Shown: piece after piece, positions 7,674 through 54,462 of the stretch
Layout: each line of letters starts with the position of its first letter
Numbering within the stretch: the first letter of the stretch is position 1
NCBI GenBank assembly: GCA_963170165.1
Contig: CAUJGQ010000096.1
Location: 2,243 to 66,242, forward strand
Direction of reading: 5' to 3'
Source of the DNA: Chloroflexota bacterium
Lineage (GTDB): Bacteria > Chloroflexota > Dehalococcoidia > CAUJGQ01
DNA length: 64,000 bases
The notes under the pieces: model-generated
What the model saw: the letters and a program-made list of their open reading frames with translations, nothing else
What the model was told of the DNA's origin: nothing
Databases searched by the model: none
Program-made: the position numbers and the translations under genes

Positions 7674-7712
7674 CTGCGTGGCGGTCCGCCTTTTGGCCGG
7701 CGCCAGCGGAGA

Positions 7713-7748: not shown

Positions 7749-7777
7749 CCATCACGTGGTACATGCTCTGCTGAGCG

Positions 7778-11849: not shown

Positions 11850-11991
11850 GACGGCCGGCTGGTTCTGCTCCTCACGCCTCTGGCCGGCGGCCGTCCACGG
11901 CGCTGGACGCTAAGCGGCCGGTACGCCAAGCTTGCCGGCAGGCGGCTGTCCCGCTGACCCGCGCTGTTGCTGTCTTGCTGAGGAGCATCCC

Positions 11992-12783: not shown

Positions 12784-12912
12784 GCGGCATCCGGCTTCCA
12801 GGAGTCACGCACTTCGTGGAGGTCTGGCCATCGGGGGACAGCCGGCGGGACGCGCCATACGCCCCGCTCTCTCCGGATGCCGGATGTCTGTCACCAGCTG
12901 CGGAGCACGACG

Positions 12913-13419: not shown

Positions 13420-13619
13420 CTCTCGTCCGGCCAATCTCGCGATGCCGGTCCCACGCCCGCTTGGCTGCGGGCCGAGCCGGGCGCCCGACGGCGGACCGGG
13501 TCCGATGGCGCGCTCGCGAGCGGCTGGCAGGCCATTGCGCAGAACATGCGCCGCGCCGGCGAGGCGGCCGTCTGGCCACCACTCCGGCGCGGCGCGCGTG
13601 CTCTGTAGGCGGTCGCGGG

Positions 13620-21071: not shown

Positions 21072-21146
21072 CGCCTATCGTGTCGTGCGTAGCGTGTGGA
21101 GCTGCCGCGCTGCGCATGACGAACGTCGCAATTCCTCCGGTGCGTT

Positions 21147-22196: not shown

Positions 22197-22213
22197 CCGC
22201 ACGGGAGTAACCG

Positions 22214-22981: not shown

Positions 22982-23024
22982 CAGGCATCCGGCGGGCGCC
23001 GCGAGACCCGCAAGGGACACCACC

Positions 23025-24035: not shown

Positions 24036-24109
24036 CACCCCGTGCTGCCGCTGACGAGCCAGGCGGGTACGATAGGCACGCCGCCACATCGTGACGTGAG
24101 GGATATCGC

Positions 24110-25117
24110 ATGACCGCCGCCCGCCTCGGATTCTCGTTGCCGCTCGCCGGGGTGCCGCTCGGCGAGCACCGCGCGCCACTGCAGGAGGCGGAGCGGCTGG
24201 GCTACACCGACGCCTGGAGCCTGGAGGTAGACGGCACGGACGCCTTCACGCCGCTGGCCGTCGCCGCCGCCTGGACCACGCGGATGCGCCTGGGTACCGC
24301 CATCGCCAACACCTTCACCCGCGGGCCGGCCACCCTGGCGCAATCGGCGCTGGGCATGGCAGAGGCCGCGCCAGGGCGGTTCGTGCTCGGACTGGGGACA
24401 TCGTCCGAGGCGATCGTGCGTGACTGGAACGGCGGGACGTTCACCCGGCCGCTGGCGCGTACCCGCGACGTGATGGCGCTGGTGCAGCAGGCGCTCACTG
24501 GCGGGCGGGTGAGCGAGACGCGCCCAGACGCCTCGATGCAGGGCTTCCGCCTGTCGCGCCCGGTCCCGGGCACAATACCGGTGTACCTGGCAGCCCTACG
24601 CTCCGGGATGCTACGGCTGGCGGGTGAGCGCGCGGACGGGGTGATCATCAACTGGCTCACACCGAAAGATGTGCCGGTGGTGGTGGACATCGCCCGCGAG
24701 GCGGCGCGCGCTGCCGGGCGCGACCCCGATGCACTGGAGGTGGCCTGCCGTATCTTCGTCTGCATGCATGATGACTTGGAGACGGCGCGGGCGATGGCTC
24801 GTCGCACCATCGCCGGCTATCTCACCGTGCCAGTGTACCGCCACTTTCATGAGTGGCTGGGCAATCATCACTTGCTCGGCGGCATGTGGGAGAAGTGGGA
24901 GGCGGGCGACCGCCGCGGTGCGCTCGCCTCCCTCTCCGACGACGCCATCGATCAGCTGTTCGCCGTCGGTGACGCCGGCCGCTGCCGTGCCGCCGTCCAG
25001 CGCTGGGTCGAGGCCGGTGTGCAGGCGCCGATTATGTACTTCCAGCCCGCCGCCACCGACGAGGAGGGCATGGGGCGCGAGTCGCTGGCGATGCTGCGCG
25101 CCCTGGCGCCGGCGTGA
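24110..25117 (+). CDS. LLM class (luciferase-like) F420-dependent oxidoreductase
   Basis: TIM-barrel LLM signature (FSLPLAGVPLGEH...LGYTDAWSLE...RLGTAIANTFTRGPATLAQSA...LGLGTS). Confidence 0.8.
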   Translation: MTAARLGFSLPLAGVPLGEHRAPLQEAERLGYTDAWSLEVDGTDAFTPLAVAAAWTTRMRLGTAIANTFTRGPATLAQSALGMAEAAPGRFVLGLGTSSEAIVRDWNGGTFTRPLARTRDVMALVQQALTGGRVSETRPDASMQGFRLSRPVPGTIPVYLAALRSGMLRLAGERADGVIINWLTPKDVPVVVDIAREAARAAGRDPDALEVACRIFVCMHDDLETARAMARRTIAGYLTVPVYRHFHEWLGNHHLLGGMWEKWEAGDRRGALASLSDDAIDQLFAVGDAGRCRAAVQRWVEAGVQAPIMYFQPAATDEEGMGRESLAMLRALAPA

Positions 25118-25665: not shown

Positions 25666-28017
25666 TCAGCCGGCTGGCTGCATACCGCCCGCCGGCGCCG
25701 CCTCTCCGATCAGGCGGGTCAGCAGGCGCAGCGCTGCCTGCTTGGGGTTGCCGCCCAGCTCGTTCTGCGGGCCGCAGCAGGAGGGACAGCCGGCCGCACA
25801 GCCACAGGCGCGAAGATGCGCGGCGGCACTGGCCAGCATCTCGGCTCGCAGGTCAAAGAGCAGTTCGGTCAGGCCGGTCCCGCCCGGAGCGGCGTCGTAC
25901 AGGAACACCGTGGGCAGGCGTGTGTGCGGTGAGCGCACCTGGGTAGTGACGTGCAGGTCGCGCGGGTCGCACAGCACGAACACCGGTGCGACCGCGTGGA
26001 GCACGGTGCCCACCGCCCACAATCCGCCCTCCACCTCTTCAGGCGGCATCCCCGCCGTCACCGTGTCCGGCAGCGCCAGCCAGCAGGCGACGGTGTGCAG
26101 GTCCTCCTGGTGCAGGTCGATCTTCTCCCAGCCGACGTTCTCGCTTGTGTCCAGCTTGATCTTCTTGAAGACCGTGGGGTAGAACGACACCTTCACATCG
26201 CCGTGATACCAGCGGCCCTGTGTGCCGTCGTCGTTGCGGTCCTCCATCAACACGGCGAGGTCTACCGCCAGCTCAGCGTCAGTGTAGTAGTCCACATCAA
26301 CCTTGTGGACGTACGCCTTGCGCTCGCCACGGTCGAGACGGTCCACGTGGTACTGCTGTCCGCCGTGGAAGTAGATGGCGTCCTTGTGCACCAGCATCGG
26401 CGCCGAGGGGCGGTCTACTTCGCCGATCACCACATGGCGGGTACGTTCGTCCGGCAGGGCATCCAGCCGTTTGCCCCGGCCGCTGCCATCCTCACCGGTA
26501 TCGATGATCACGAAGTTGTCCACCGAGGCAGCGCGCAGCGAGATATTTTCCGCTGGGTAGCTCTCGTGCATCCACCAGAACTTGCCACCTTCCAGGTGCA
26601 GGATGCCTTCATCGCAGAGGTAGCCCAGCAGCAGGTTGGTGTCTTTGCCGAACTCCGGCTCGTCAGAGCCAAACGGCAGTTCAAAGGCCGCGCATTTGAG
26701 ATGCGAAACGAGGATGTAGAAGTTGTCCGGGTTGATGCGCGCCTGCTCCGGCCGGCCGCCGAAGATAAACTCCGGGTTCTCGGCAATGTACTGGCTGAGG
26801 GCGGAGGATGTGCATACCATGACCGCGAAAGCCAGGTCGTGCCGCCGGCCGGCACGGCCGAACTGCTGCCAGGTGCTAGAGATGGAGCCGGGATAGCCGA
26901 GCAGCACCGCCGCTTCCAGCCCTCCGATATCGATACCCAGCTCCAACGCGTTGGTGGAAACCACACCGCGCACGGTACCGTCACGCAGCCCCTGTTCAAT
27001 CTGGCGCCGCTCGTTCGGCAGATAGCCGCCGCGGTAGCCGTGGACGCGCTCCGACAGCGGCGGGCCAGGACGGCGCTGCATCTCCCGGCGCAGATTCGTC
27101 AGCAGGACCTCCACGCCGGTCCGGGAGGAGGCAAAGACAATGCTCTGGGCGCCACCGCGGATCAGCGATCCTGCCAGGGAACGCACCACCGCCATTGACG
27201 AGCGGCGCAGCCCCAACTCGCGGTTAACCACCGGCGGGTTGTAGATCGCCACCACCTTCTTGCCGGCCGGCGCGCCGCTGCTGGCAATCAGCTGCACCGG
27301 TTGCCCCGTCAGCCCTTCGGCCAGCTCCACCGGATTGGCGATGGTGGCGGAGCAGCAGATGAACACCGGGTCCGCGCCGTAGAACTGGCAAATGCGTCGC
27401 AGCCGCCGAATGACGTTGGCCACATGGCTGCCGAACACGCCCCGATACTGGTGTAGCTCATCGATCACCACATAGCGCAGATTGGCGAACAGCCGTTGCC
27501 ACTTGGTGTGGTGGGGAAGGATGCCGGTATGGAGCATATCCGGGTTGGTGATGACGATGTGCCCGGAGGCGCGCATGCGCTGGCGAGCGTCTTGGGGTGT
27601 ATCACCGTCGTAGGTGAAGGTGCGGATCTCCTTGCCCGTGGCTGCAATCAGTCCGTGCAGCTCGTCGTACTGGTCCTGGGCCAGCGCCTTGGTGGGAAAC
27701 AGGTACAGCGCTCGGGCGGCCGGCTCGCGCAGGATCGTGGAGAGTACCGGCAGCGTGTAGCAAAGCGTCTTGCCGGAGGCCGTCGGCGTCACCACCACGC
27801 AGTGCCGGCCGGCCAGCGCGGCGGCGGCGGCTTCGGCCTGGTGAGTCCAGGGACGGGCAATACCCCGGCGCGCCAGCGCCGCGATCAGCTCGGGATGGAC
27901 GTCGGTCGGGTAGTCCGCGTAGCGGGCCGGCCGGGGAGGGATCTCCTCCCAGTGGATAAAGTTCTCCCGGTGCTCGCGCGAGAACCGCAGATCGTCCAGC
28001 ACCTGTGCCAGCGCCAT
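25666..28017 (-). CDS. DEAD/DEAH-box helicase with C-terminal DUF1998 zinc-binding domain (YprA/MrfA-like)
   Basis: Walker A (TPTASGKT), DExH (VVIDELHQY) and helicase C motifs. C-terminal four-Cys cluster (CGCAAGCPSCCGPQ) characteristic of DUF1998. Confidence 0.85.
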   Translation of the reverse strand: MALAQVLDDLRFSREHRENFIHWEEIPPRPARYADYPTDVHPELIAALARRGIARPWTHQAEAAAAALAGRHCVVVTPTASGKTLCYTLPVLSTILREPAARALYLFPTKALAQDQYDELHGLIAATGKEIRTFTYDGDTPQDARQRMRASGHIVITNPDMLHTGILPHHTKWQRLFANLRYVVIDELHQYRGVFGSHVANVIRRLRRICQFYGADPVFICCSATIANPVELAEGLTGQPVQLIASSGAPAGKKVVAIYNPPVVNRELGLRRSSMAVVRSLAGSLIRGGAQSIVFASSRTGVEVLLTNLRREMQRRPGPPLSERVHGYRGGYLPNERRQIEQGLRDGTVRGVVSTNALELGIDIGGLEAAVLLGYPGSISSTWQQFGRAGRRHDLAFAVMVCTSSALSQYIAENPEFIFGGRPEQARINPDNFYILVSHLKCAAFELPFGSDEPEFGKDTNLLLGYLCDEGILHLEGGKFWWMHESYPAENISLRAASVDNFVIIDTGEDGSGRGKRLDALPDERTRHVVIGEVDRPSAPMLVHKDAIYFHGGQQYHVDRLDRGERKAYVHKVDVDYYTDAELAVDLAVLMEDRNDDGTQGRWYHGDVKVSFYPTVFKKIKLDTSENVGWEKIDLHQEDLHTVACWLALPDTVTAGMPPEEVEGGLWAVGTVLHAVAPVFVLCDPRDLHVTTQVRSPHTRLPTVFLYDAAPGGTGLTELLFDLRAEMLASAAAHLRACGCAAGCPSCCGPQNELGGNPKQAALRLLTRLIGEAAPAGGMQPAG

Positions 28018-29061: not shown

Positions 29062-30225
29062 ATGCCACGCTGGGCGCTATTGCTGTCAATGGCCGTGCTG
29101 TTCGTCGTGGCGATGGTGGCCGTCGTGGTGGTGCTGCGCCGGTCGCACGACGGTGGGCCAATCGCTACCGGTCCTACGCCGGCTCCGGGCTCGGTGGCGA
29201 TGCCGGACGGGATCGAGCTACTGTTTACGACACCGCTCGGCGGCAACAACCGCGCTCCCACCGGCGCGCCGGGCCGGCTCGATGAACGCCTCACCGCGCT
29301 CATTGACGGTGCACGCACGTCGGTCGACATGGCGATCTACGACCTACGGCTAGACAACGTGGCCGATGCACTGGTGCGCGCCCATCAGCGCAGCGTGCGC
29401 GTCCGGCTGGTAACAGATACGGACAACGTGGAGGATGCCCAGCTCAAGCGCGTGAAGGGCGCGGGCGTGCCGGTGGTGGCCGACGGCCGCGGCCCGCTCA
29501 TGCATCACAAGTTCACCGTGATCGATGGGGAAGTAGTGCTGACCGGCTCCTGGAATTACGCCCCGAACGACACCTTCCGTTACAACAACCACACGGCGGT
29601 GATCCGCTCCCGGCCGCTGGCCGAGAACTATACGGCCGAGTTCGAGAAGATGTTTACGCGCCGCAGCTTCGGCCCGACCAAGCCGAAAGACGTTCCCCAT
29701 CCGCGCATCGTACTGGACGGCGCCGTCATCACGACGATCTTCGAAGCAGAAGGGGATGCGGCCGGCCCGATTGTCGAGCGCATTCGCGGCGCGCGGCATA
29801 GTGTCGCGTTCCTCGCCTTCACCTTCACGCACGACGACATCGGCCGGGCCATCGAGGAGCGGTTCGCGGCGGGAGTCGCCGTACGCGGCGTCATCGAGAA
29901 CCTCCAGTCCGAGCGGCCGGAGGGGGAGCTTGGCCGCCTGGTGCGCGCCGGCCTGGGAGCGGCGCAGCCGGCCGGGGTGCCGCTGCCGGAGTGTGTGGCC
30001 GGCCCCGCCGTGCTGACAGACGGCAACCCGCAGCTCATGCACCACAAGGTGATCATCATCGACGGGACCGTCGCCATCTTCGGCTCCTTAAACTTCACTG
30101 CTAACGCCACCACCGACAACGACGAGAACGTGCTGATCATCGAGTCACCCGCCATCGCCGCGGCCTTCAGCGCCGAGTTCTGCCGCGTCTACAACGTGGC
30201 GGTGGAGGCGAAGAACCGGCGCTAA
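29062..30225 (+). CDS. phospholipase D-like domain protein (two HKD motifs), N-terminal membrane anchor
   Basis: Two HxKxxxxD motifs (HHKFTVIDGEVVLTGSWNYAPN and HHKVIIIDGTVAIFGSLNFTANA). N-terminal hydrophobic segment LLSMAVLFVVAMVAVVVV. Confidence 0.85.
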   Translation: MPRWALLLSMAVLFVVAMVAVVVVLRRSHDGGPIATGPTPAPGSVAMPDGIELLFTTPLGGNNRAPTGAPGRLDERLTALIDGARTSVDMAIYDLRLDNVADALVRAHQRSVRVRLVTDTDNVEDAQLKRVKGAGVPVVADGRGPLMHHKFTVIDGEVVLTGSWNYAPNDTFRYNNHTAVIRSRPLAENYTAEFEKMFTRRSFGPTKPKDVPHPRIVLDGAVITTIFEAEGDAAGPIVERIRGARHSVAFLAFTFTHDDIGRAIEERFAAGVAVRGVIENLQSERPEGELGRLVRAGLGAAQPAGVPLPECVAGPAVLTDGNPQLMHHKVIIIDGTVAIFGSLNFTANATTDNDENVLIIESPAIAAAFSAEFCRVYNVAVEAKNRR

Positions 30226-35466: not shown

Positions 35467-36384
35467 TCAGTGTGTCACGAGCGCGGCCACGGCGGCGGAG
35501 GCGGCCCGCAGATCGCCTTCCGGCGCCACCACACCGGGGGGCAGCTCCACCAGCCGGGCGGCGGGGCCACCAACGGCGATCACACACCCCAACGCGGAGC
35601 CGCTCAGCGCGGTAAGGGTCGCATGCAGCGCCGGCGCCGAGGCCGTGGCGGTAGCGCTCAGGCACACCGCCGGCGCGCCGCTGTCCCGCAGGCAATGCAT
35701 GAGATCCACCACCGGGACATCGGCGCCGAGATACAACGCGCGCACCCCAGCCCAGCGCAGGAACAGCCCCAGCATCAGCAGCCCCAGCGCGTGCTGCTCC
35801 CCCGGGACACAGGCCAGGATCACGGCTGGCGCGCCGGTGAGCGGCGGCTGAGCATGCCACAGCGCCTGCAGCCGCCGCTGGATGACGTTGGTGGCGAAGT
35901 GCTCGGCGCTGACCGGCAGATCGCCGCCGGCCCATTGCTCGCCGATGGCGTACAGCGCGGGAACGATCACGCCCAGCAGCACGTCGTCGGGAGAGAAGCG
36001 GGCATACGCTTCGCTCTGCACCGCATGCAGCGCCGGCTCGTCATAGCGGGCCGCGGCCTGCAACAGCTGGTCCGTCAGTGACGTCTGCGGCCTCAGCACC
36101 GGCGGCGCGCCATCAGATGCCGTACCCGGCGCGGCGCGCTGGGCCCAGCGCACGGCCTGGGCCGCACTCAGACCGCGCGCTGTCTGGACGCGCACCCAGG
36201 CGATGGCGGCCACCTCGCGCTCGGAATACAACCGGCGGGCGGAGGGGCTGCGGTCCGGAGAGGGAAAACCGTAGCGCCGTTCCCACGAGCGGAGGGTGGC
36301 CGCCGGCACGCCGGTGCGGCGCTCCACAGCTCGGATGTTGTACCGCGGCTCATTCACGCTGTCAGTTATCCATATCTCATGCAA
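35467..36384 (-). CDS. MerR family transcriptional regulator with C-terminal cobalamin-binding domain (CarH/LitR-like)
   Basis: MerR HTH (YNIRAVERRTGVPAATLRSWERRYG). B12-binding signature ExHxxG (PGEQHALG) and a downstream GG. The start is uncertain: TTG 36384 or GTG 36357. Confidence 0.7.
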   Translation of the reverse strand: MHEIWITDSVNEPRYNIRAVERRTGVPAATLRSWERRYGFPSPDRSPSARRLYSEREVAAIAWVRVQTARGLSAAQAVRWAQRAAPGTASDGAPPVLRPQTSLTDQLLQAAARYDEPALHAVQSEAYARFSPDDVLLGVIVPALYAIGEQWAGGDLPVSAEHFATNVIQRRLQALWHAQPPLTGAPAVILACVPGEQHALGLLMLGLFLRWAGVRALYLGADVPVVDLMHCLRDSGAPAVCLSATATASAPALHATLTALSGSALGCVIAVGGPAARLVELPPGVVAPEGDLRAASAAVAALVTH

Positions 36385-36475: not shown

Positions 36476-36573
36476 CAGAGGGGACCAGCGTGCTGCCGGT
36501 CCCCTCGTTGGCTGCGGTGCCGGGTGAGCGCTTAGTGCGCGGCGGCGCCGGAGTGGGCGAAGCCGATGTTCGG
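36476..36573. repeat. left copy of a 98-bp direct repeat (att-like): orphan duplicate of the TPP-enzyme gene 3' end plus terminator
   Basis: 95/98 identical to 42092..42189. Its reverse complement encodes ...PNIGFAHSGAAAH-stop with no gene attached. Contains the GGGGACC-N11-GGTCCCC hairpin. Confidence 0.8.
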
Positions 36574-36721
36574 AGTCGAAGCAGCGAGGTGCTTACTGGG
36601 GATACCTCAAAGTACTCGGTGCCTGCTATCCGGTTGTCACGGTAAAACTCCACTGCCAGGTTCCGAACAGGCTACCCCGCCAGCACTCGGAGATGGTCGT
36701 ATCTACAGGAGCAAGCTGTCC

Positions 36722-38569
36722 TCATAACCCTCTGCTGAGGAAGGCAACCAGGAGAGCACCTACGCCGGCGGCTAGAGACAGCACCACAGCTACCTTCACC
36801 CAAGCCGGAGCGCCGTCCTTTTGCGTCGGCCGTGGCGGTTGCGTAGGTCGTGGTGGCCCAGCCGGCGTGGGAGCAGCGGGTATGGGTGCTTGCAGCGGTG
36901 ACTGTAGCCCTGGCACAGCAGGGCGAGTCGCCGGTACCGCACGTGGGGGCTGCTGCGCCGATGGCTTGGCTGGCTCAAGCGGTCGAGAGGGCGATGGCGC
37001 ACCGGGAGAATGACTTGTCTGCTTCCTGATCTCCGCCAATACATCCATGTTCCTGGACTGCCGGGTCACGGGTGGCTGTGCAGTGGGCAGAGAGACGTGC
37101 GACGGCCCCTGAACTGACGGCGGTGGCAACGGGCCGGGCTCCGTGGATACTGGCGAGGAGATCTGTGGCGTTACCCTCGCGAGTGAACCGGGACCGCTCC
37201 CCAGGAGTCGAGGTGGCGGGCCGCCGCGGTTCAGTCTGAACTTCGCCTCTTGTTCGTCGATGAACTTGACCTGTGACTGATCCGTTATGGTAATGCCGAT
37301 GCTCTCGTACGACGGACCGACATAGGGCGGCTCTACCAATCCACTCACACTGACCCAGCGGCCTACCCATGCCGCAGATGGCCGGTCGCTGAATGTTGTC
37401 AGTCCTTCCGACCAGATGGTCAGCCGTGCACAGTTAAGCTTCCAGTTGCCAAAATTAACAAAAGCATACGGGTTCCCGTAGCGAGTAGTGGCAGTTTTTG
37501 TCTCGACTACCTTGCCAACGAGTTCCACCTTATCGCCAACCCGCCGGAGAACGGTCTTGTAGTCTGATGCGTCAACGACATCATAGGCGCCGACATAGCG
37601 CAGCGGCTGTTGAGGGACGGTGTGCCTTGACGCTGGTTGGGCAACAGTGACGGCGGATGCAGATGCAGGCCGTTTACCAGCTGCGAAGGCACCAAGGGCA
37701 GGCACGCTCTGGATCGGTGCCGCGCAAAGCTCTGCGAGTTGCTCCGCCTGCCGCTGTAAATCTGGTAGCCGCAAGAGGATCTTGAAGATTTCAGACTGAT
37801 TTGGATCCGCGAAGTCGCCAGCTTTGAAGACGATAGTCTCTCCACCTTCGCTGTACTTCGCGTAAAGTTCCGGGTTCGCCGCAAGCGCCTGCAGGCTGAC
37901 ATCGATGACAATCAGCGAGAAGCGATCGATCCAGGGGCCGAACTGATCGCCCGTTCGTCCAGGATGCTGGAAGTGCTTGAGGCCTATCTCGCTACTGCGT
38001 GTAACGGGTAGGCCGGGCACCCACATGCCGTCGTAATCGATCAGCTTGATGGAACCGTCACGCTGCACCATGACATTGCCGTTTTGCAGATCCCCATGCC
38101 CGATTCCTTGCTGCTCGAGGAATCCCGCCAGCGCACGAAATTTCGTCTGCAGCGACCGGATTGCCTGCGCATTACGGTACTGATGCTGGAGGTAGATGCC
38201 GAGCGTGTCGCCCTCCAGCCAGTCCATCACAACGATCGGGAAGACATTGCCATTCGCGCGAATTCCACTTGGTTGAAAAGAGAATTGTGTGAAGTAGTCA
38301 GACTGAAGCTTCCCAATGGAGCTGGAAATCGCTGCGTACTTCCCCTCGATATCCGGAACCGATCGGTGGAAGCACCGCACGGCGTACTTCTTCGAACCTG
38401 CCGTCAGCTTGTATGTCAGGGCAAATCCGCCGGAGCGTGCGAAGGGGATACCGAAAGAATTGGTTTCGACCTTCGCCTGCTTGAGCTCCGTATCGACAAA
38501 CGCGAACTGCGGATTCTGCAGCAGTTCCTGGTATTCGAGCATAGTGGGATACGCAGCCATTGCGGTCAC
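36722..38569 (-). CDS. protein-kinase-like protein with C-terminal OB-fold-like domain, Pro-rich linker and transmembrane anchor (TerY-P kinase component candidate)
   Basis: Catalytic-loop-like HGDLQNGNVMV (HxDxxxxN) and Mg-binding LIDYDGM (DFG-like). No canonical Gly-rich loop. C-terminal WVKVAVVLSLAAGVGALLVAFL transmembrane helix. ATGA overlap with the upstream PP2C gene. Confidence 0.7.
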   Translation of the reverse strand: MTAMAAYPTMLEYQELLQNPQFAFVDTELKQAKVETNSFGIPFARSGGFALTYKLTAGSKKYAVRCFHRSVPDIEGKYAAISSSIGKLQSDYFTQFSFQPSGIRANGNVFPIVVMDWLEGDTLGIYLQHQYRNAQAIRSLQTKFRALAGFLEQQGIGHGDLQNGNVMVQRDGSIKLIDYDGMWVPGLPVTRSSEIGLKHFQHPGRTGDQFGPWIDRFSLIVIDVSLQALAANPELYAKYSEGGETIVFKAGDFADPNQSEIFKILLRLPDLQRQAEQLAELCAAPIQSVPALGAFAAGKRPASASAVTVAQPASRHTVPQQPLRYVGAYDVVDASDYKTVLRRVGDKVELVGKVVETKTATTRYGNPYAFVNFGNWKLNCARLTIWSEGLTTFSDRPSAAWVGRWVSVSGLVEPPYVGPSYESIGITITDQSQVKFIDEQEAKFRLNRGGPPPRLLGSGPGSLARVTPQISSPVSTEPGPLPPPSVQGPSHVSLPTAQPPVTRQSRNMDVLAEIRKQTSHSPGAPSPSRPLEPAKPSAQQPPRAVPATRPAVPGLQSPLQAPIPAAPTPAGPPRPTQPPRPTQKDGAPAWVKVAVVLSLAAGVGALLVAFLSRGL

Positions 38570-39318
38570 CAGAGTACGAGGAGTGTAGTGTCATCGCGAC
38601 GCAGCCGACCACTTGCCCGTTCGTCAATCACGAACGTGCGAAAGGCACCGATGTCCTGAAGTTCCAGAAGACGCCGAACGGGATTGACTCCGAGACCTGA
38701 CTGCTCAAGGAACCAGAGGCCGAGTGCGTCGGTCATACACAGCAGGCGCGGCTGTTGATAATCCTGTAAGTCAAACTCCCCGCACCAGTCCCACCGGAGG
38801 AAGCCGTCCTCATCAAATTGATTCTCACTGAGATTAGTTGAAATCAGGTGGGGTCTGTTGCCGAACTGACTGGGATGAGACAAAGGAAACATTTGCTGGA
38901 TGGCGTCACCGTCGCAGAGCACACCGCAGGTGTCACCAATTGCCTGGATCTCCAGCAAACCCTGCGCGCGATAGCGAATACCCAGAAGACTCGCGAAGTT
39001 GCCCCGCTCCATCGCTGCCTGAGCGTGCCAAGGAAGATTATCCCAGTCAAAGCGCTTCGCGAACTCTTGCGCGACCTTCTTTAGTGAGTCGCGTCTGATG
39101 CTGGGGTCACGCACGTAGTGGCACACGAGCATCTGCGCCCAGGTGGCAGAGTCAAACGATACCGAAGCCCCATCGCTGAGCGCATATCTGCCCCAGCCGC
39201 GGTGCGCTTTCCACTTGTCCTCGTTCTGGGAGCCGTCGTCGTGCTTGGGTACCGTGAACTCGCGCCGCAACTGGAATGCGTCGGTTGACACCTTCGCCCC
39301 CCTAGCGATCGCCCGCAA
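38566..39318 (-). CDS. PP2C-family Ser/Thr protein phosphatase
   Basis: N-terminal metal-binding motif GSQNEDKW, the LSDGASVSFDSATWAQML block (equivalent to DGMGGHxxG), and the C-terminal DDTTLLVLW end typical of PP2C/SpoIIE phosphatases. Confidence 0.65.
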   Translation of the reverse strand: MRAIARGAKVSTDAFQLRREFTVPKHDDGSQNEDKWKAHRGWGRYALSDGASVSFDSATWAQMLVCHYVRDPSIRRDSLKKVAQEFAKRFDWDNLPWHAQAAMERGNFASLLGIRYRAQGLLEIQAIGDTCGVLCDGDAIQQMFPLSHPSQFGNRPHLISTNLSENQFDEDGFLRWDWCGEFDLQDYQQPRLLCMTDALGLWFLEQSGLGVNPVRRLLELQDIGAFRTFVIDERASGRLRRDDTTLLVLW

Positions 39319-41038
39319 CTACGTTCGCACGTGTGCCAATGTCGAAAAAGTCCACGATGAATCCGGGCGACTGCACATTGTACATGAAACCACGCGCGCC
39401 ATCCGCGATCTGGTAGTCTTTGCTCATCGCCGCCTGAACGAGGTGCGCTGGCAGTGCACTCGAGGCTCGGAAGAGCATGCGGGCGGAGTCATCAGGAAGG
39501 CCCGTCTCATCAGATGGGAGGACGATCGGCGCGATCGCTCCAAGGGCAACGTGGAGATTGAACACAAGAATCTCTCCATCATCGGTGCCCATGAGCCGCA
39601 ACTTCTCGACGATCTCTTCTGGCGACCCATCGGTGGACACACCATCGGTGATATGCAGTACGGTCGGTGGGTAGGAGTTCGGATGGGCATCGCACCAGGC
39701 TGCCAGTACCTCGGCAGCGCGCACGAAGGCCGCACGCATCGGTGTACCACCGGTGTTCTTTGGCTCGAACCAGACGGGGAACTTCGTGTTCATCTCGACA
39801 ACGCCACCGGCCCCGTCGTCGACTTTGCGCTTTCTCTCCTCAATGCGCAGAGGGTTATCAGCGATCATGCTGATAGAATGAAGATCCTGTCCAGCCAGGT
39901 TGCCGCTGAAGCCCGGCGCTACGCTGTTACCACCGTACCCAAGCACGCCGATGTCAAAGTAGTCCCGCACGCCGTCGGCTTTGGTGCAAACTTGGCCAAG
40001 CGTGTAGATGGTGCGATTGAGGACGTCCGCGACGAACTCGGCCTTGGACCGGCCACTCTCCATGCGTTCGTCCATGGAACCTGACTGGTCGACGAGAAAT
40101 AGAAAACACGTGGGGTTGGCTCTGCTGATCTCACCGCGATACGACATAGCTTCTGGATGCTCCTTGTGTTGCTGTTTGGATAGATTGATATTGTCCCAAT
40201 CCGGTCGCTCACTCGAGCCAACATATAAAGAGTCGATGAGGAAGCTCTCCGGGGACTCGACGTTGTACATGAAACCACGCGCACCATCCCCAACCTGGCA
40301 GCCCCGTTCTTGCGCTTCGTAAAGAAGGTGATCGGGCAGCGCACTCGATGCCCGCCACAACATGCGGGCGTTTTCATTCGGCAGCCTGGATTCGGTTGCT
40401 GGAAATAGGAGTTCTGAGTGACCCCCAGGAGCTACTTGCAGGTTGAAGATCAGGGAAGCGCCGTCGGCAGTTCCAAAATTCTGCAGTGACTTGCTGAGCA
40501 ACTCAGGCGACCCATCGGTCGAGTCGCCGCCAGTTAGGTGGAGTACGGTGGGAGGATAGGAGTCTGGATGGCGTTCGCACCAGGCTGCCAGTACCTCGGC
40601 AGCGCGCACGAAGGCCGCACGCATCGGTGTACCACCGGTGTTCTTTGGCTCGAACCAGACGGGAAACTTCGTGCTCATCTCGATCACGCCACCGGCGCCA
40701 TCGTCCACCGTTCGCTTCCGATCCTCGACCCGCAACGGGTTATCAGCCACCACACTTGTTGGATGAAGAACCTTGCCCGCAAGTATGCCGCCAAAACCCG
40801 GTGCCACGCTGTCATCACCATAACAAAGCACGCCGATGTCAACGTAATTTCGGACCCCATCTGATCTACAACTGCACTGGATTAATCGGGAAATGGCTCG
40901 GTTAAGTATGTCTGCAACGATCTCTGACCTGGGAGTTCCACTCTCCAGGTGCCCTTTCATCGACCCAGATTGATCAACAAGGAACAGGAAGCAGGTGGGC
41001 TTGGTTGGGCTGATCCAGGCGCGATACGGCATGATCAC
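39302..41038 (-). CDS. tandem-duplicated vWA (von Willebrand factor A) domain protein, TerY-like x2
   Basis: Two MIDAS motifs CFLFLVDQSGSM (DxSxS), one per half, with a TDG(D/V)STDG second metal loop. The two halves are about 60% identical with an 885-bp period. Confidence 0.75.
   Translation of the reverse strand: MIMPYRAWISPTKPTCFLFLVDQSGSMKGHLESGTPRSEIVADILNRAISRLIQCSCRSDGVRNYVDIGVLCYGDDSVAPGFGGILAGKVLHPTSVVADNPLRVEDRKRTVDDGAGGVIEMSTKFPVWFEPKNTGGTPMRAAFVRAAEVLAAWCERHPDSYPPTVLHLTGGDSTDGSPELLSKSLQNFGTADGASLIFNLQVAPGGHSELLFPATESRLPNENARMLWRASSALPDHLLYEAQERGCQVGDGARGFMYNVESPESFLIDSLYVGSSERPDWDNINLSKQQHKEHPEAMSYRGEISRANPTCFLFLVDQSGSMDERMESGRSKAEFVADVLNRTIYTLGQVCTKADGVRDYFDIGVLGYGGNSVAPGFSGNLAGQDLHSISMIADNPLRIEERKRKVDDGAGGVVEMNTKFPVWFEPKNTGGTPMRAAFVRAAEVLAAWCDAHPNSYPPTVLHITDGVSTDGSPEEIVEKLRLMGTDDGEILVFNLHVALGAIAPIVLPSDETGLPDDSARMLFRASSALPAHLVQAAMSKDYQIADGARGFMYNVQSPGFIVDFFDIGTRANVVAGDR
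39692..39778. repeat. 87-bp segment perfectly identical to 40577..40663 (core of the intragenic vWA duplication)
   Basis: Direct comparison of the two halves of the 39302..41038 gene. The flanks diverge gradually. Confidence 0.85.
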
Positions 41039-41075
41039 TCCGGATGCCGAGTCTTCGTACCTTTGGCTGGCACCA

Positions 41076-41921
41076 TCACGTCAGTTGAGCGCGCGTGCCG
41101 ATATTGAAGAAGTCGACGATGCTCGAGATATCCGCGTTGTAGACGAAGCCACGTGCTCGCTCCTGTATCCGCAGCCCTTGCTGGCGGGCAGACTGGATCA
41201 AAGTCGCGGGTAGTTCGCTCGACATCTGGAACAGCTTGACGGCGTACTTATTTGGCAATCCAGCTGGGTCTCTCGGAAAGGCATGCGAGTTGCCGTGCCC
41301 CTGGTCGACGTGGAGATTGAACAGCAAACATTGGCCATCCTCTGTTGCAAGCGCCCTCACCTTGGCGGCTATGGGCTCGGGATCACCATCTGTCGGATGC
41401 CCATCGGTTACGTGCAGCAAGATGGGTGGATAGCTGAGTGGGTGGCGGTGCACCCAGTCATTCAATGTCTGATGGGCAAGTCCGAGTCCAGCGCACATCC
41501 CGGTCCAGCCGCGGCTGCACGGCTCTACCCAGACCGGAAATCGTATCGGGTTGCTAATCGTGTCTCCGGTCTCAGACTTGACCTGCTGCTGACGAGTCTC
41601 AATACGCAAGGGGTGCGTAGCCATGAGTGAAAGTGGATGGAGGACGGCGGTATTGAGTACGCCGTGTAAGGCGTTCTCAGCAAGTCCAAGGTCACGCGTC
41701 AGACCGCTGTAACCGATGACGCCGACATCGAAGTAGTCACGCACTCCATCGTGTCGTGTGGAAGCGACAGCCAGGGTGGCGAGGGTGCGATTGATCACGT
41801 CGCACAGAAACTGTGCCTTCGTGCCTGCGCCTTCGACATGCTCGCGCATCGAGGTCGATTGGTCTACAAGGATTAGCAGGCATGCAGGCGACGTCTGGCT
41901 GATGGCAGCGGAGTACACCAC
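41076..41921 (-). CDS. vWA domain protein (TerY-like), first gene of the operon
   Basis: MIDAS ACLLILVDQSTSM plus TDGHPTDGD. Paralogous to both halves of the fused gene. GGGAGA RBS. Confidence 0.75.
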   Translation of the reverse strand: MVYSAAISQTSPACLLILVDQSTSMREHVEGAGTKAQFLCDVINRTLATLAVASTRHDGVRDYFDVGVIGYSGLTRDLGLAENALHGVLNTAVLHPLSLMATHPLRIETRQQQVKSETGDTISNPIRFPVWVEPCSRGWTGMCAGLGLAHQTLNDWVHRHPLSYPPILLHVTDGHPTDGDPEPIAAKVRALATEDGQCLLFNLHVDQGHGNSHAFPRDPAGLPNKYAVKLFQMSSELPATLIQSARQQGLRIQERARGFVYNADISSIVDFFNIGTRAQLT

Positions 41922-42001
41922 TGGAGATCTCCCGCGGCTTCAGCGTGCGACAGTGTTGACGTGCTAGTTGTCGCAGCGACTGGCACTCTAGCTGGTTTGG
42001 T

Positions 42002-42030
42002 ATCATACATAGACATTATGTGACATGCAA
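42002..42030 (-). promoter_or_regulatory. putative sigma-70 promoter for the vWA-PP2C-kinase operon (TTGCAT, 17 nt, TATGAT on the minus strand)
   Basis: Near-consensus hexamers with a 17-nt spacer in an AT-richer 180-bp region about 75 nt upstream of the vWA start codon. Confidence 0.4.
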
Positions 42031-42091
42031 TCATTTCGAAAGGCGTGGTCGCCTCATTGCCCTCATCTGAGGTCGTGCAGTGAAGTCAATA

Positions 42092-42189
42092 CAGAGGGGA
42101 CCAGCGTGCTGCCGGTCCCCTCGTTGGCTGCGGTGCCGGGTGGGCGCTTAGTGGGCGGCGGCGCCGGAGTGGGCGAAGCCGATATTCGG
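42092..42189. repeat. right copy of the 98-bp direct repeat: the genuine 3' end (last 14 codons plus stop) and terminator hairpin of the TPP-enzyme gene
   Basis: Reverse complement reads DPNIGFAHSGAAAH-stop in frame with the 549-aa ORF. Hairpin GGGGACC-N11-GGTCCCC at 42096..42120. Confidence 0.85.
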
Positions 42190-43797
42190 GTCGGTGATGA
42201 CATTGATGCAGGCGGGGACTCCGGAGGCAAACGCCCGCTCCAGCGCCGGCCGGATCTCCTTGGCTTCGGTCACCATCTCGCCGTAGCCGCCCATCGCCTC
42301 GACGATTTTGTCGTAGCGCACGCTCTGCGACAGCTCCTGCGCGACGGTGTGGCCGTAGCGCTGCATCTGCGGGCGCTTGTTTTCGCCCCAGGCGCCGTCG
42401 TTGCCGATGATCGACACCACCGGCAGCTTGTGCCGCACCATCGTCTCGAACTCAAAGCCGTTGAGACCGAAGGAGCCGTCGCCGTTGACGATCAGCACCT
42501 GCTCCTGCGGACGGGCCAGCTTGGCGGCGATGGCGTAGCCGGTGCCGACGCCCAGGCAGCCCAACCCGCCCGGATCAAGCCAGTGGCCGGGCTTGTAGAT
42601 GTCGAGGATGCGGGCCGCGGTGGTGACGACATCGCCGCCGTCACCGATCACCGTGGCGTCGCGGTCGATGAAGTCGCGGATCTCCTTGCACAGGCGGTAG
42701 GGGTGAATCGGGTTCTGGTCCGAGTTCATCACCGCCTCATCCGCCTTGCGCGTCTGCCCCTCGATGCCGCGCAGCAGCTCGATCCAGGCATCGCCGCCAC
42801 GGCGGTCGCGGCCGGTCTCCAGCTCGTTGACCAGCTGCGTGAGCACGGAGTTGACGTCGCCCACCAGCCCGACCTCGATGTCACGGTTCTTGGCGATCAG
42901 CGTCTCATCGACATCGACTTGGATCACCTTGACGTCCGGGTGGAAGCGCGGCGGCCGGCCGAAGCGCAGGCGGAAGTCGAACGGCGCGCCGATCACCAGC
43001 ACGACATCGGCCTGAGACAGCGCCTGCCCGCGGGAGAAGGCAAAGAACAGCGGGTGGTCGGCAGGGATGGCGCCGCGGGCCATGCTGTTCAGATAGACCG
43101 GGGCGTTGAGCGTCTCGATAGTGGCGCGCAGGGCGTCCCACGCCTGGTCAAACCAGATGGCGGAGCCGGCCATCACCACCGGCCGCTCGGCATTCGCCAG
43201 CAGATCGGCGGCGCGGCGCACCTCATCCGGGTCGGCCTGGGTGCGGCCGGTGGCGCGGTCCTGCTTGGGCCACCACACCTTCTCCTCGGCAGCGCTGCCC
43301 ATGATCACGTCGATCGGCACCTCCAGGAAGGAGGGGCCAGGCCGGCCGGCAATGGCATGGCGGAAGGCGATGGAGATGTACTCGGGCAGGCGGGCCGTCT
43401 GCGCCACCATCGCCGAGTACTTGGTGATCGGGCGCAGGAAGTCCAGGTGATCGATCTCCTGGAGGTTGCCCATCCCCCACTGCGCCAGCGGGCTCTTGCC
43501 ACCGATCACGATGCAAGGCGCGCCGCTCTGCAGGGCGGAGACGATACCGGTGACGCCGTCGGTGACGCCTGGTCCGGCGGTAATGGCGGCCACACCCGGC
43601 TTGCCCGTCACCTTCGCCCAGCCCTCGGCAGCGTGCACGGCCGCCTGCTCGTGGCGAAAGTCAACGACGCCGATACCTTCTTTGACGCAGCCGTCATAGG
43701 TGGGCGAGATATGCCCGCCGCTGAGCGTGAACAGGTGCTGCACGCCCTCTTTCTTGAGCTGGCGGGCGATGAGATGCCCGCCATGCAAATCGGCCAT
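42148..43797 (-). CDS. thiamine pyrophosphate-dependent enzyme (acetolactate synthase large subunit/oxalyl-CoA decarboxylase family)
   Basis: N-terminal TPP_enzyme_N motif (GVQHLFTLSGGHISPTYDG), TPP-binding GDGSFGLNGFEFETMVRH...N motif, and 549 aa. GGAGG RBS. Confidence 0.8.
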   Translation of the reverse strand: MADLHGGHLIARQLKKEGVQHLFTLSGGHISPTYDGCVKEGIGVVDFRHEQAAVHAAEGWAKVTGKPGVAAITAGPGVTDGVTGIVSALQSGAPCIVIGGKSPLAQWGMGNLQEIDHLDFLRPITKYSAMVAQTARLPEYISIAFRHAIAGRPGPSFLEVPIDVIMGSAAEEKVWWPKQDRATGRTQADPDEVRRAADLLANAERPVVMAGSAIWFDQAWDALRATIETLNAPVYLNSMARGAIPADHPLFFAFSRGQALSQADVVLVIGAPFDFRLRFGRPPRFHPDVKVIQVDVDETLIAKNRDIEVGLVGDVNSVLTQLVNELETGRDRRGGDAWIELLRGIEGQTRKADEAVMNSDQNPIHPYRLCKEIRDFIDRDATVIGDGGDVVTTAARILDIYKPGHWLDPGGLGCLGVGTGYAIAAKLARPQEQVLIVNGDGSFGLNGFEFETMVRHKLPVVSIIGNDGAWGENKRPQMQRYGHTVAQELSQSVRYDKIVEAMGGYGEMVTEAKEIRPALERAFASGVPACINVITDPNIGFAHSGAAAH

Positions 43798-52737: not shown

Positions 52738-54462
52738 ATGGAAGATTCATCTTCACCCCTACACCGGGATCAGACACCGGTGCTTGTGTTGCTTGATTGG
52801 AGCGCCGGCTCGGCGGGCGAAGGCGGCCTCAGCCCGGCGGCATTGCTGGCCGTGGCGCGCCGCTACGGAGCGCTGGCGCAGGTGCGGGTCTACGCCGGCC
52901 GGCCAGATAGCGTGCCGGCCGGCGCCGTCGCGCAGCTCCACGCCGCTGGGATGGCAGTGATGCTCACGCCCTCGCCGGCCGTTCAGATGGCGGTAGACGC
53001 GCTGCAATGTGCCCGGCCCGATAGCGTTGTGGTGCTCGTGGCGTCCTGGCTGAGCGTTGTCCCCTTGGTCCCCGCCCTTGCTGGGCGCGGCGTTACCGTC
53101 ATCCTTGCCTCGCCGGACACGCTGCCAGAGGGCGGCCTGCTCCCGGCCGGCTTACATGCCGTGGTGCCCTGGCGGGAGATTATTGAGAGCGTGCCGGAGG
53201 TTCGTGCACCGGCAACGTCGACACCACCCGCCATCAACGGGGCAGCTCCTGCACCCACTTGGCCGGCGTTCGGTTGGCAACCACCCAGTGACAGTAGCCA
53301 TACCCGCACTCTGGAGCGCCACATCCGCGACTTACAGCAGGTGCTGGAGCAGGCGGGCGAGCCGCCATCCGGCGCTCTCGATGACGCCGCCTGTCGTATC
53401 GAGGCAGGGGTGCTGCGCGATCTGACCGAAGACATCGATGGCCGGTGGGGCGAGCTGCCCGCCGATCAGCAGCGGGCGCTGCTGGGAATGTGTGCAGCGC
53501 GCATCAAGCATCTACAAGGTCAGAACGTCGTCGCCGCTGATGACGATCTTTCCTCCCGGCTGACCCGCACCTTTGGCATCCTCACCCGCTTCTCCAAGGA
53601 GTACATGCCGGGGGCGGTCCACGGGCTAGCGCGCGTGCACCAGCCCCGTCACGACTCCTGGGCCAGCGACGCGCATGAGTACTACTCCTCCCTGTGCAAG
53701 CAGGCCGGGATGGTGACCGACCCCGACGCCGTGCGAGCGCGGCTGCTGGCGGAGCTGGCAGAGGCCGTAGCGATGTGGAGCGCAGCACTGCCAGAGGAAC
53801 GGACGGTGCCCTCCGCCGAGGTCGCCGAACGGGTGCGTGCCTGCTTTCGGTCTGGTATGGGCCGCACCGACGCCGAGATCGTCCGCATTGTCGCCCCGGC
53901 CGCCCGCGAATTGCGCGCGACGGACTTCAAGTCGCTGCGCGAAGCGGTCAAACAACTGGAGCGGGCGCCGGCTCCGCAGGCTCCGGAGGCGGACGGAGCT
54001 ATGCCGGTGTGCTCGCATCCCGACTGTGTCCGGCTGGCGGGCGCGCGCTCGACGCCCGGGACTGCGATGGTGGAGGTCGAACCGGGCGAGTGCGAGGTGT
54101 GCGAGAACTCCAACGACCGGCGGGCGATGCTGCTGATGGCCGATACGCTCCATCGCAACAACCTGGAACGGCTACTAGTCGTCGGCGGCTCACCGGCGAA
54201 ACGCACCCTACTTGAGCAGACACTCGGTGACGAGGGGCTGCAACTGCGTTGTGTGGACGGGACCGGCCACTCCAACACGCGTGAGGCCGTGAACAATCTC
54301 AACTGGTGTCAGGTGGCGGTGATTTGGGGTGGCACCGAACTGGACCACAAGACCTCGGATCTGTACACCGACAACCTTCCTCCACACGTGCTGGCCGTGA
54401 CGCTGGCGCGGCGCGGTATCGAGGCGCTGTGCCGCGAAGTGATTGCCCGCGCGGAGGGGTGA
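52738..54462 (+). CDS. hypothetical multidomain protein: N-terminal NYN/LabA-like alpha/beta module, CxxC...CxxC zinc ribbon, C-terminal DUF2325-like domain
   Basis: N-terminus VLVLLDWSAG...AVQMAVDAL...VVVLVAS resembles the NYN fold but lacks the SGDGDF acidic cluster. CSHPDCVR...CEVCENS ribbon. LLVVGGSPAKRTLLEQTLGDEGLQLRCVDGTGHS...VAVIWGGTELDHKTSD resembles DUF2325. Confidence 0.45.
   Translation: MEDSSSPLHRDQTPVLVLLDWSAGSAGEGGLSPAALLAVARRYGALAQVRVYAGRPDSVPAGAVAQLHAAGMAVMLTPSPAVQMAVDALQCARPDSVVVLVASWLSVVPLVPALAGRGVTVILASPDTLPEGGLLPAGLHAVVPWREIIESVPEVRAPATSTPPAINGAAPAPTWPAFGWQPPSDSSHTRTLERHIRDLQQVLEQAGEPPSGALDDAACRIEAGVLRDLTEDIDGRWGELPADQQRALLGMCAARIKHLQGQNVVAADDDLSSRLTRTFGILTRFSKEYMPGAVHGLARVHQPRHDSWASDAHEYYSSLCKQAGMVTDPDAVRARLLAELAEAVAMWSAALPEERTVPSAEVAERVRACFRSGMGRTDAEIVRIVAPAARELRATDFKSLREAVKQLERAPAPQAPEADGAMPVCSHPDCVRLAGARSTPGTAMVEVEPGECEVCENSNDRRAMLLMADTLHRNNLERLLVVGGSPAKRTLLEQTLGDEGLQLRCVDGTGHSNTREAVNNLNWCQVAVIWGGTELDHKTSDLYTDNLPPHVLAVTLARRGIEALCREVIARAEG

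What the first reader, a model, noticed from the sequence alone, without database searches (positions are those of the whole stretch)
36476..42189. 5.7-kb low-GC islet carrying a vWA x3 - PP2C - kinase operon (TerY-P-like phosphorylation triad) inserted at the 3' end of a TPP-enzyme gene
Four co-directional genes with overlapping or near-overlapping junctions encode a vWA protein, a fused double-vWA protein, a PP2C phosphatase and a protein-kinase-like protein. This is the domain triad known as TerY-P (TerY vWA, PP2C, Ser/Thr kinase). TerY-P has been proposed from comparative genomics as a stress/virus-response module and reported as an antiphage system. Several things set this locus apart. 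It has three MIDAS-containing vWA modules where the triad has one. The kinase lacks a Gly-rich loop and carries an OB-like domain and a transmembrane anchor. The whole unit is bounded by att-like 98-bp repeats, is visibly AT-richer than the surrounding 70% GC chromosome, and has no integrase or other mobility gene. Calling it TerY-P-like is an inference from motif-level reading.
Basis: partly seen in the sequence, partly recalled or inferred. Interest (0 to 1): 0.85.

Follow-up and report, generated by a model that had tools for sequence, protein, structure and literature searches.

The report
Horizontally acquired TerY-P anti-phage cassette

Summary
A 98-nt direct repeat (95/98 identical) brackets a 5.5-kb segment of 58% GC in a 68% GC genome (z = -11). 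The segment holds four co-directional minus-strand genes.

PADLOC's three TerY-P models hit them full-length: TerY 1e-94 and 5e-229, PP2C 1e-63, STK_OB 6e-170. AlphaFold/Foldseek independently confirm the kinase and PP2C folds. It is therefore a member of the known TerY-P defence family (Gao 2020 type), not merely similar to it.

Three supposedly special features are family-wide: the OB-like domain, the C-terminal membrane anchor and the odd Gly loop. Two TerY genes, not one, are the norm in this clade (29 of 36 informative metagenome loci).

Two things are particular to this locus:
- A tandem duplication of the B-type TerY, fused by stop loss. The extra module has lost the fifth MIDAS Asp.
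- The att-like repeats (0 of 25 other loci have them), with no recombinase in the island or within 13.6-64 kb of the window.

The repeat is the last 42 nt of the TPP-enzyme gene plus its terminator hairpin. The SNP pattern favours recombination between diverged homologous segments over target-site duplication. No empty site was recovered. Defence function is inferred, not shown.

The parts
36476..36573 (-). Left (CarH-proximal) copy of the 98-nt repeat. It is a pseudo 3' end of the TPP gene (42 nt plus stop) and a 12-bp-stem hairpin. It lies downstream of the kinase gene and probably acts as the operon terminator.
   Evidence: It carries alleles G36/T47 (gene orientation) that are absent from the TPP-adjacent copy and from the 97% relative L010.
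36574..36721 (-). Island left end, 148 nt non-coding, downstream of the kinase stop.
   Evidence: GC 0.57.
36722..38569 (-). STK_OB. It has an eukaryote-like Ser/Thr kinase domain (about residues 1-300), a five-strand beta-barrel with OB topology (about 330-450), a disordered Pro-rich linker with a short helix (506-519), and a C-terminal TM helix (589-614).
   Evidence: PADLOC PDLC02223 at 5.8e-170, residues 6-536 against profile 2-522/562. AF2 mean pLDDT 80, above 90 in the folded parts. Foldseek top hits are all protein kinases. A PDB profile search hits PAK/PKC/PknB. Invariant HGDxQNxN and IDYDG motifs.
38566..39318 (-). PP2C/PPM-type Ser/Thr phosphatase. The database gene call starts at 39291, giving 241 aa.
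   Evidence: PADLOC PDLC02222 at 1.2e-63. AF2 pLDDT 92.7. The Foldseek top 50 are all PPM phosphatases: PBCP, PppA, PstP, tPphA, RsbX. Invariant D34, D49-G50, D129, D197, D242-D243.
40154..41038 (-). TerY module 2 (B'), the N-terminal half of the fused 578-aa protein. It is a diverged duplicate of the B-type TerY. DxSxS and Thr are kept. The fifth MIDAS Asp is lost (HLTGG) and the family C-terminal motif DFFxIGTR is lost.
   Evidence: (885-nt period, 81-82% nt identity).
39302..40153 (-). TerY module 3 (B), the C-terminal half of the fused protein, with a complete MIDAS (DQSGS, GGTPM, HITDG). It is 75% identical to the PP2C-proximal TerY of the closest locus, L006.
41076..41921 (-). TerY module 1 (A-type vWA), with a complete MIDAS (DQSTS, GWTGM, HVTDG). 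It is 66% identical to the distal TerY of L006.
   Evidence: PADLOC PDLC02224 at 1.3e-94. The identical protein occurs in Logan contigs from several sequencing runs.
41922..42091 (-). Island right end, a 170-nt AT-richer leader and presumed promoter region upstream of TerY1.
   Evidence: GC 0.51. No consensus sigma-70 site passed the scan, so the promoter is inferred only.
42092..42189 (-). Right (TPP-proximal) copy of the 98-nt repeat. It is the true 3' end (last 42 nt plus stop) and terminator hairpin of the TPP gene.
   Evidence: Alleles C36/C47 match the 97% relative L010.
42148..43797 (-). Target gene: an intact 549-aa thiamine-diphosphate enzyme (acetolactate-synthase-like, NF004516).
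35467..36384 (-). Flanking CarH-like MerR/B12-binding regulator. The database start is 36357.

Best explanation
The locus is a divergent member of the TerY-P anti-phage family, of the type with a kinase-OB fusion. A high-GC, probably Chloroflexota, genome acquired it horizontally as a 5.5-kb cassette.

The operon reads: A-type TerY (vWA/MIDAS), then a fused B'-B TerY pair, then a PP2C phosphatase, then a tail-anchored Ser/Thr kinase with a cytoplasmic kinase domain and an OB-like domain.

Proposed working model (inferred):
- The paralogous A and B vWA proteins use their MIDAS sites as a metal-dependent binding and sensing module.
- The membrane-tethered kinase and the PP2C form an opposing phospho-switch on the TerY proteins or on a phage or host target.
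- The OB-like domain gives the kinase access to nucleic acid at the membrane, where podophage DNA enters.
- Activation blocks infection without killing the cell, as reported for homologous TerY-P systems against T7-like phages.
- The extra B' module arose by tandem duplication and stop loss and is decaying or acting as a non-MIDAS adaptor.

The cassette integrated by recombination between a roughly 98-nt segment it carried and the homologous chromosomal segment. That segment comprises the 3' end and terminator of a TPP-enzyme gene from an earlier host. The recombinase acted in trans (cis-mobilizable-element style) or the exchange was RecA-mediated (Campbell type).
For: Shown:
- PADLOC TerY, PP2C and STK_OB models hit full-length at 1e-94/5e-229, 1e-63 and 6e-170.
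- The kinase fold is confirmed and the PP2C fold is confirmed.
- Catalytic and metal residues are conserved.
- The same gene order TerY(-TerY)-PP2C-STK occurs in all metagenome loci with enough sequence.
- A/B paralogy and the B' duplication are established.
- Foreign composition: GC z = -11, GC3 about 0.66 against about 0.85, tetranucleotide outlier.
- The repeats coincide exactly with the composition boundary.
- The CarH-side copy carries non-host alleles at two of three SNPs, while the TPP-side copy matches the sister lineage. That fits attP x attB-type exchange, not target-site duplication.
- In the sister lineage (97% aa TPP) the sequence past the terminator is not the island end and has host-like GC.

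From the literature:
- TerY-P with a kinase-OB fusion is a stand-alone defence system (PMC10542128).
- It is active against T7-like phages (PMC7699616).
- In P. aeruginosa it acts against Autographiviridae, and most cells survive (bioRxiv 10.1101/2022.08.12.503731).
Against: - No phage or phenotype data exist for this locus or its clade. The nearest kinase in a 5.8-billion-protein database is only 56% identical.
- Pfam does not reach threshold for any component.
- The OB fold rests on predicted topology and on the family's name. A Pfam scan of that segment found nothing.
- No true empty site was found. Relatives at 85% TPP identity or below have no synteny, and k=31 Logan contigs cannot tell filled from empty sites.
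- No recombinase was identified.
- Every mechanistic step beyond domain identity is inference. No TerY-P component has a solved structure by sequence search.
Confidence: 0.8

Rival explanations
1. The module is not a phage-defence system here. It is a stress or metal-sensing phospho-signalling switch, which is the original comparative-genomics proposal for TerY-P triads linked to tellurite-resistance loci.
For: TerY-P triads were first predicted to be metal-sensing, phosphorylation-dependent switches (cited in PMC10542128). The island is not inside a recognisable defence island; its flanks are metabolism genes. vWA MIDAS sites are metal-dependent.
Against: The OB-fused subtype, which this is, is the one shown experimentally to defend against phages. 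No ter genes are nearby. Sporadic, horizontally acquired distribution is typical of defence cargo.
Confidence: 0.12
2. The island is the remnant of a larger integrative element, with its integrase and other genes deleted, rather than a cassette that moved as such.
For: Att-like direct repeats at the 3' end of a gene are the hallmark of tyrosine-integrase elements. No recombinase remains.
Against: Both repeats are intact. Only 148 and 170 nt of non-coding DNA separate them from the operon, leaving no gene fragments or scars. Composition is uniform across the island.
Confidence: 0.2
3. The integrated arrangement is an assembly artefact. In this reading a circular 5.6-kb episome carrying one repeat copy and an uninterrupted TPP-CarH site were joined by the assembler.
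For: Short-k Logan contigs from at least five runs all break at the repeat ends. They are equally compatible with an episome plus an empty site.
Against: The deposited 68-kb contig resolves two distinct repeat copies differing at three positions. The host-like alleles are phased to the TPP side. A 5.6-kb circle with no replication gene would not be maintained.
Confidence: 0.05
4. The four genes are native, with no insertion. On this view the low GC reflects gene-specific constraints and the repeat is a local duplication.
For: The island is present in every sample in which this species was found. No empty site was recovered.
Against: GC is 11 sd below all other 5.5-kb windows. GC3 is depressed in all four genes and the tetranucleotide signature is an outlier. 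The boundaries coincide with the repeats to the base. The nearest homologues are 56% identical or less and come mainly from Proteobacteria-like contigs. The sister lineage lacks the island end after the terminator.
Confidence: 0.04

Closest known systems
TerY-P defence system (Gao et al. 2020; PADLOC 'TerY-P' models TerY/PP2C/STK_OB; DefenseFinder Gao_TerY)
   Same: All three component families match over full length. Gene order and co-directional operon are the same. The kinase has a C-terminal OB-like domain, a linker and a TM tail. MIDAS and catalytic residues are conserved.
   Different: The sequences are very divergent (56% identity or less). There are three vWA modules instead of the described one, although two is the norm in this clade. 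Modules 2 and 3 are fused, and module 2 has a defective MIDAS. The host is probably Chloroflexota.
TerY-P triads embedded in Type II/III-A CoCoNuT (McrBC-related) systems and ter-operon neighbourhoods
   Same: The vWA-PP2C-kinase logic is the same.
   Different: In those systems the kinase is fused to a zinc ribbon, not an OB fold, and they sit beside McrBC/HEPN or ter genes. None of these is near this locus.
Cis-mobilizable elements (CIMEs) and other integrase-less islands flanked by att sites (my own knowledge, not checked in the library)
   Same: Cargo is flanked by direct repeats that duplicate the 3' end of a chromosomal gene, with no recombinase of its own.
   Different: No cognate integrase or ICE was identified, no excision was shown, and the 98-nt identity is long for a typical att core. 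RecA-mediated Campbell-type integration would give the same structure.
Fused double-TerY proteins elsewhere (P0378 567 aa, P0396 580 aa)
   Same: Two TerY vWA modules in one polypeptide.
   Different: They are rare (2 of the 150 best representatives). The one locus inspected has FHA and other vWA genes but no PP2C or kinase.

Membership tests
TerY-P defence system | TerY-type vWA protein with a MIDAS motif | tested here: met
   PADLOC TerY at 1.3e-94 (281 aa) and 4.6e-229 with two stretches (578 aa). DxSxS, Thr and the TDG Asp are present in modules 1 and 3. Module 2 lacks the Asp.
TerY-P defence system | PP2C/PPM Ser/Thr phosphatase | tested here: met
   PADLOC PP2C at 1.2e-63. AF2 pLDDT 92.7 and the Foldseek top 50 are all PPM phosphatases. 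Metal-binding Asp residues are invariant. Pfam found nothing on its own.
TerY-P defence system | Eukaryote-like Ser/Thr kinase | tested here: met
   PADLOC STK_OB at 5.8e-170. Foldseek and PDB profile hits are all protein kinases. HGD..N and DYDG motifs are invariant. Pfam Pkinase reaches only 21.6 bits against a cut-off of 31.7.
TerY-P defence system | OB fold fused C-terminal to the kinase (defence subtype) | tested here: inconclusive
   The match to the STK_OB profile runs through this region. The AF2 model shows a confident five-strand barrel with a helix between strands 3 and 4 at residues 330-450. Pfam found no OB family on the excised segment, and no domain-level fold search was possible.
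TerY-P defence system | The three components adjacent and co-directional | tested here: met
   The same order occurs in L006 and the metagenome loci.
TerY-P defence system | Protection against phage | not testable with these tools
   Known only for homologues.
Site-specific integrative element / CIME | Flanking direct repeats (attL/attR) duplicating the target | tested here: met
   98 nt, 95/98 identical, two copies only. 0 of 25 other TerY-P loci have such repeats.
Site-specific integrative element / CIME | Own integrase or recombinase (integrative element), or a cognate one elsewhere (CIME) | tested here: not met
   None in the island and none among 30 genes at 13.6-64 kb. The rest of the genome is not available.
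Site-specific integrative element / CIME | Empty site in close relatives | tested here: inconclusive
   The sister lineage L010 lacks the island end after the terminator, but only 43 nt are available and they do not align significantly to the CarH side. More distant relatives have no synteny.
Site-specific integrative element / CIME | Excision to a circular form | not testable with these tools
   k=31 contigs cannot span the 98-nt repeat.

The most novel reading that the evidence does not exclude
The 5.6-kb unit is a minimal, recombinase-less mobile defence cassette. It travels with a borrowed 3' end and terminator of a housekeeping gene and re-inserts wherever a homologous gene end exists, by a trans-acting integrase or by homology alone. 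Its fused B'-B TerY is a functional innovation, for example a MIDAS-dead decoy or adaptor that changes what the system senses.
Probability: 0.12. Interest if true: 0.55.

Novelty: new member of a known kind. Interest (0 to 1): 0.27.

Why it matters
TerY-P is an experimentally validated defence system whose mechanism is still unknown. No component has a solved structure by sequence search.

This locus adds a very divergent member from a phylum with few characterised defence systems.

Comparing it with 80 metagenome loci shows three things about the family:
- The common form carries two paralogous TerY proteins (A and B).
- The kinase is tail-anchored to the membrane.
- The linker holds a conserved short helix.

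These family-level points could guide experiments more than the locus itself does.

The precise insert without an integrase is a tidy example of how small defence cassettes can be placed at a gene's 3' end. It does not open a new question on its own.

Tried and rejected
- Genome scan for the TPP gene: only 69% and 57% relatives, so no empty site.
- Exact-protein look-ups for the TPP enzyme and CarH with the ORF-list starts: not on record. The right CarH start (36357) was found through.
- Neighbourhoods of the 85% and 82% TPP relatives: no shared synteny on either side, so useless as empty sites.
- L010, the 97% relative: the 43 nt past the terminator do not align significantly to either the island end or the CarH side. 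An anchored 13/19 match to the CarH side is suggestive only.
- Logan contigs: all break at the repeat. They show that both contexts exist in at least five runs but cannot separate integrated, excised or empty states.
- Flanking repeats as a general property of TerY-P cassettes: rejected, 0 of 25 loci.
- Target-site duplication: rejected. 98 nt is far beyond known TSDs, and the copies differ in a host versus non-host pattern.
- tRNA target: none in the window.
- Rfam: nothing in the window.
- Promoter and terminator consensus scan: nothing informative.
- Plasmid, phage and viral collections: two distant plasmid hits, no phage hit, one viral contig.
- Anantharaman 2012 and Gao 2020 could not be read. 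What is said about them comes from papers that cite them.
- The afdb50 fold library was unavailable.
Full report
**Observation.** The coordinates are exact. A 98-nt direct repeat lies at 36476-36573 and 42092-42189, with 95/98 identity. A 47-nt core occurs only twice in the window, against none in shuffles. Between the copies GC falls from about 0.68 to 0.55-0.60.

- The island proper (36574-42091) is 58.1% GC. 190 other 5.5-kb windows give 67.9 +/- 0.9%, so z = -11.
- Its tetranucleotide distance from the rest is 0.375, against a maximum of 0.157 elsewhere.
- GC3 of its genes is 0.64-0.68, against 0.77-0.90 in most host genes (0.71 in one doubtful ORF).

Four minus-strand ORFs fill the island: 41076-41921 (281 aa), 39302-41038 (578 aa), 38566-39318 (250 aa) and 36722-38569 (615 aa). 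On the minus strand the repeat reads as the last 42 nt of a TPP-enzyme gene, its stop codon, 14 nt, and a 12-bp-stem hairpin. The TPP gene (42148-43797) is intact and matches NF004516 above its cut-off. The other flank is a CarH-like MerR/B12 regulator.

**What the genes are.** Pfam alone is weak. VWA_2 and VWA pass only for the 578-aa protein, Pkinase reaches 21.6 bits against a cut-off of 31.7, and the 250-aa protein gets nothing. The PADLOC models for the TerY-P system hit decisively and over full length:

- TerY: 1.3e-94, and 4.6e-229 with two stretches.
- PP2C: 1.2e-63.
- STK_OB: 5.8e-170, residues 6-536 on profile positions 2-522 of 562.

I checked the two enzymes independently.

- An AF2 model of the kinase has mean pLDDT 80, above 90 in the folded parts. 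Its PDB matches are all protein kinases, and a family profile finds PAK, PKC and PknB catalytic cores.
- An AF2 model of the 250-aa protein has pLDDT 92.7. Its 50 best PDB matches are all PPM/PP2C phosphatases, including PBCP, PppA, PstP, tPphA and RsbX.
- The phosphatase family keeps D34, D49-G50, D129, D197 and D242-D243 invariant.

The region 330-450 of the kinase is a confident five-strand barrel with a helix between strands 3 and 4, which is OB topology. Pfam finds no OB family there, so I treat the OB call as consistent but not proven.

**Are the 'special' features special?** Mostly not.

- A paper on CoCoNuT systems states that TerY-P modules with the kinase fused to an OB fold are the ones shown to be stand-alone defence systems (PMC10542128). 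The PADLOC model carries that name.
- In an alignment of 30 homologues, nearly all have a Pro/Ser-rich disordered linker after the barrel, ending in an 'IPxWxW + hydrophobic' segment. In the model this is a TM helix at 589-614. The membrane anchor is therefore a family trait.
- The family also has an invariant SGGFALTY where a Gly-rich loop is expected, AVRCF with Arg where the beta-3 Lys is expected (my inference from motif order), HGDxQNxN, and IDYDG.

**Number of vWA modules.** I fetched 80 metagenome loci with the kinase alignment. I scored them, plus L006 (the locus of the nearest kinase homologue), with HMMs built from the window's proteins.

- 33 loci have two full, separate TerY genes upstream of PP2C-STK.
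- In 29 of those, at least 400 nt further upstream hold no third copy.
- 7 loci have a single TerY.
- None has three modules or a fusion.

The two genes are distinct paralogues, about 52% identical within a locus. The window's module 1 is A-type (66% to L006_A) and module 3 is B-type (75% to L006_B). Module 2 is a diverged B-type duplicate: 61% to module 3 overall but 82-90% in the centre, which is more than module 3 shares with L006_B there. At the DNA level this is a tandem repeat of period 885 nt at 81-82% identity.

The fusion is a stop loss. A 23-residue linker is followed by the old start, M-SYRGEISR. Module 2 keeps DxSxS and the Thr. It has HLTGG in place of the family-invariant TDG, and it has lost the invariant C-terminal DFFxIGTR.

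A full HMMER pass over 1.84 billion representatives found fused double-TerY proteins in only 2 of the best 150. The one locus I could inspect has FHA and other vWA genes but no PP2C or kinase.

**Insertion and mobility.** No recombinase is in the island. None is among 30 flanking genes from 13.6 to 64 kb, which are ordinary metabolism and transport genes. There is no tRNA in the window. Flanking repeats are not a property of TerY-P cassettes in general: 0 of 25 loci with both flanks have any, and their GC matches their surroundings.

The three differences between the copies lie at positions 6, 36 and 47 in gene orientation. The last 50 nt are identical.

| Copy | Position 6 | Position 36 | Position 47 |
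|---|---|---|---|
| TPP-side copy | T | C | C |
| CarH-side copy | C | G | T |
| Sister lineage L010/L011 | C | C | C |

The sister lineage's TPP gene is 97% identical in protein and 92% in DNA. The CarH-side copy therefore carries non-host alleles on its 5' side. This is what exchange between an element-borne segment and the chromosomal one would leave, with the crossover in the 3' half. It is not what a target-site duplication would leave. Whether an integrase acting in trans or RecA did this cannot be decided from sequence.

I found no true empty site.

- Relatives at 85%, 82% and 69% TPP identity share no neighbours with the window.
- L010 gives only 43 nt beyond the hairpin. Those bases are host-like in GC (0.67 against 0.51 for the island end). 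They do not match the island end, and they match the CarH side only weakly.

The identical TerY1, CarH and near-identical MalQ/TPP occur in Logan contigs from at least five runs, and a 99.6% identical TerY1 variant and a MalQ variant sit on other NCBI contigs. All short-k contigs break at the repeat ends. The island therefore seems fixed in this species, but excised or empty forms would be invisible to such data.

**How it probably works.** The parts list, the conserved catalytic and MIDAS residues, and the topology (no signal peptide, C-terminal tail anchor) are shown. The literature adds that TerY-P protects against T7-like phages (PMC7699616). In P. aeruginosa it protects against Autographiviridae at low and high MOI, with most cells surviving (bioRxiv 10.1101/2022.08.12.503731).

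The rest is inferred. The A and B vWA proteins bind a ligand through MIDAS. The membrane-tethered kinase and the PP2C set the phosphorylation state of TerY or of a phage or host target. The OB-like domain contacts nucleic acid near the membrane. No solved structure of any component exists by sequence search.

**Verdict.** This is a genuine, horizontally acquired, divergent member of a known defence family. The locus-specific points are modest: a decaying or repurposed third vWA module fused to the second, and a neat recombinase-less insertion with 98-nt repeats. The organism is probably a Chloroflexota MAG, judged from the TPP homologues.

Noticed in passing
window 36722-38569, kinase residues 506-519; alignment A2: Inside the otherwise disordered Pro-rich linker there is a short predicted helix (RNMDVLAEIRKQ). 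It corresponds to a conserved 'N..IL' motif that many homologues carry once or twice. It could be a docking motif for TerY or PP2C.
   Followed up: no
L007 1-100; L093 and L094 3' ends; window 42184-42189: MalQ-TPP contigs from two runs stop 5 nt into the repeat, just before the C/T difference at position 6. L007 joins a TPP-side base to the CarH-copy alleles and then to the island's right end. Either strains differ in the TPP-side copy (gene conversion or different crossover points), or the k=31 assembly threaded the wrong branch.
   Followed up: partly
L101-L104, 1-9000: A fused double-TerY protein (567 aa) sits after FHA, two vWA genes and a 787-aa CarboxypepD_reg/prenyltransferase-like protein. 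It lies next to QueC-like and SNF2/DUF3670 helicase genes, with no PP2C or kinase. This is a different TerY context that may be another defence-type module.
   Followed up: no
window 25666-28017 and 29062-30225: An MrfA-like helicase (DEAD, Helicase_C, MZB zinc domain) and a two-domain PLD-family protein lie 8 kb from the island. This could be DNA repair or defence-related.
   Followed up: no
window 52738-54462: A 574-aa protein whose only hit is a sub-threshold N-terminal NYN (RNase-like) domain.
   Followed up: no
window 19848-25117 and 54511-55602: There is a cluster of acyl-CoA dehydrogenase, two APH-family kinases and a luciferase-like monooxygenase, plus a further EcKL/APH kinase. These are unrelated small-molecule kinase-fold genes, not part of the finding.
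   Followed up: no
L076 2332-3187; L058 3866-5203; L070 and L082: In a few metagenome TerY-P loci the second TerY or the kinase is split across two frames or ORFs. These may be decaying copies or sequencing errors.
   Followed up: no
window 1-13600: Thirteen ORFs at the left end of the window were gene-called by GC3 but not scanned against any family library, so a recombinase there is not excluded.
   Followed up: no
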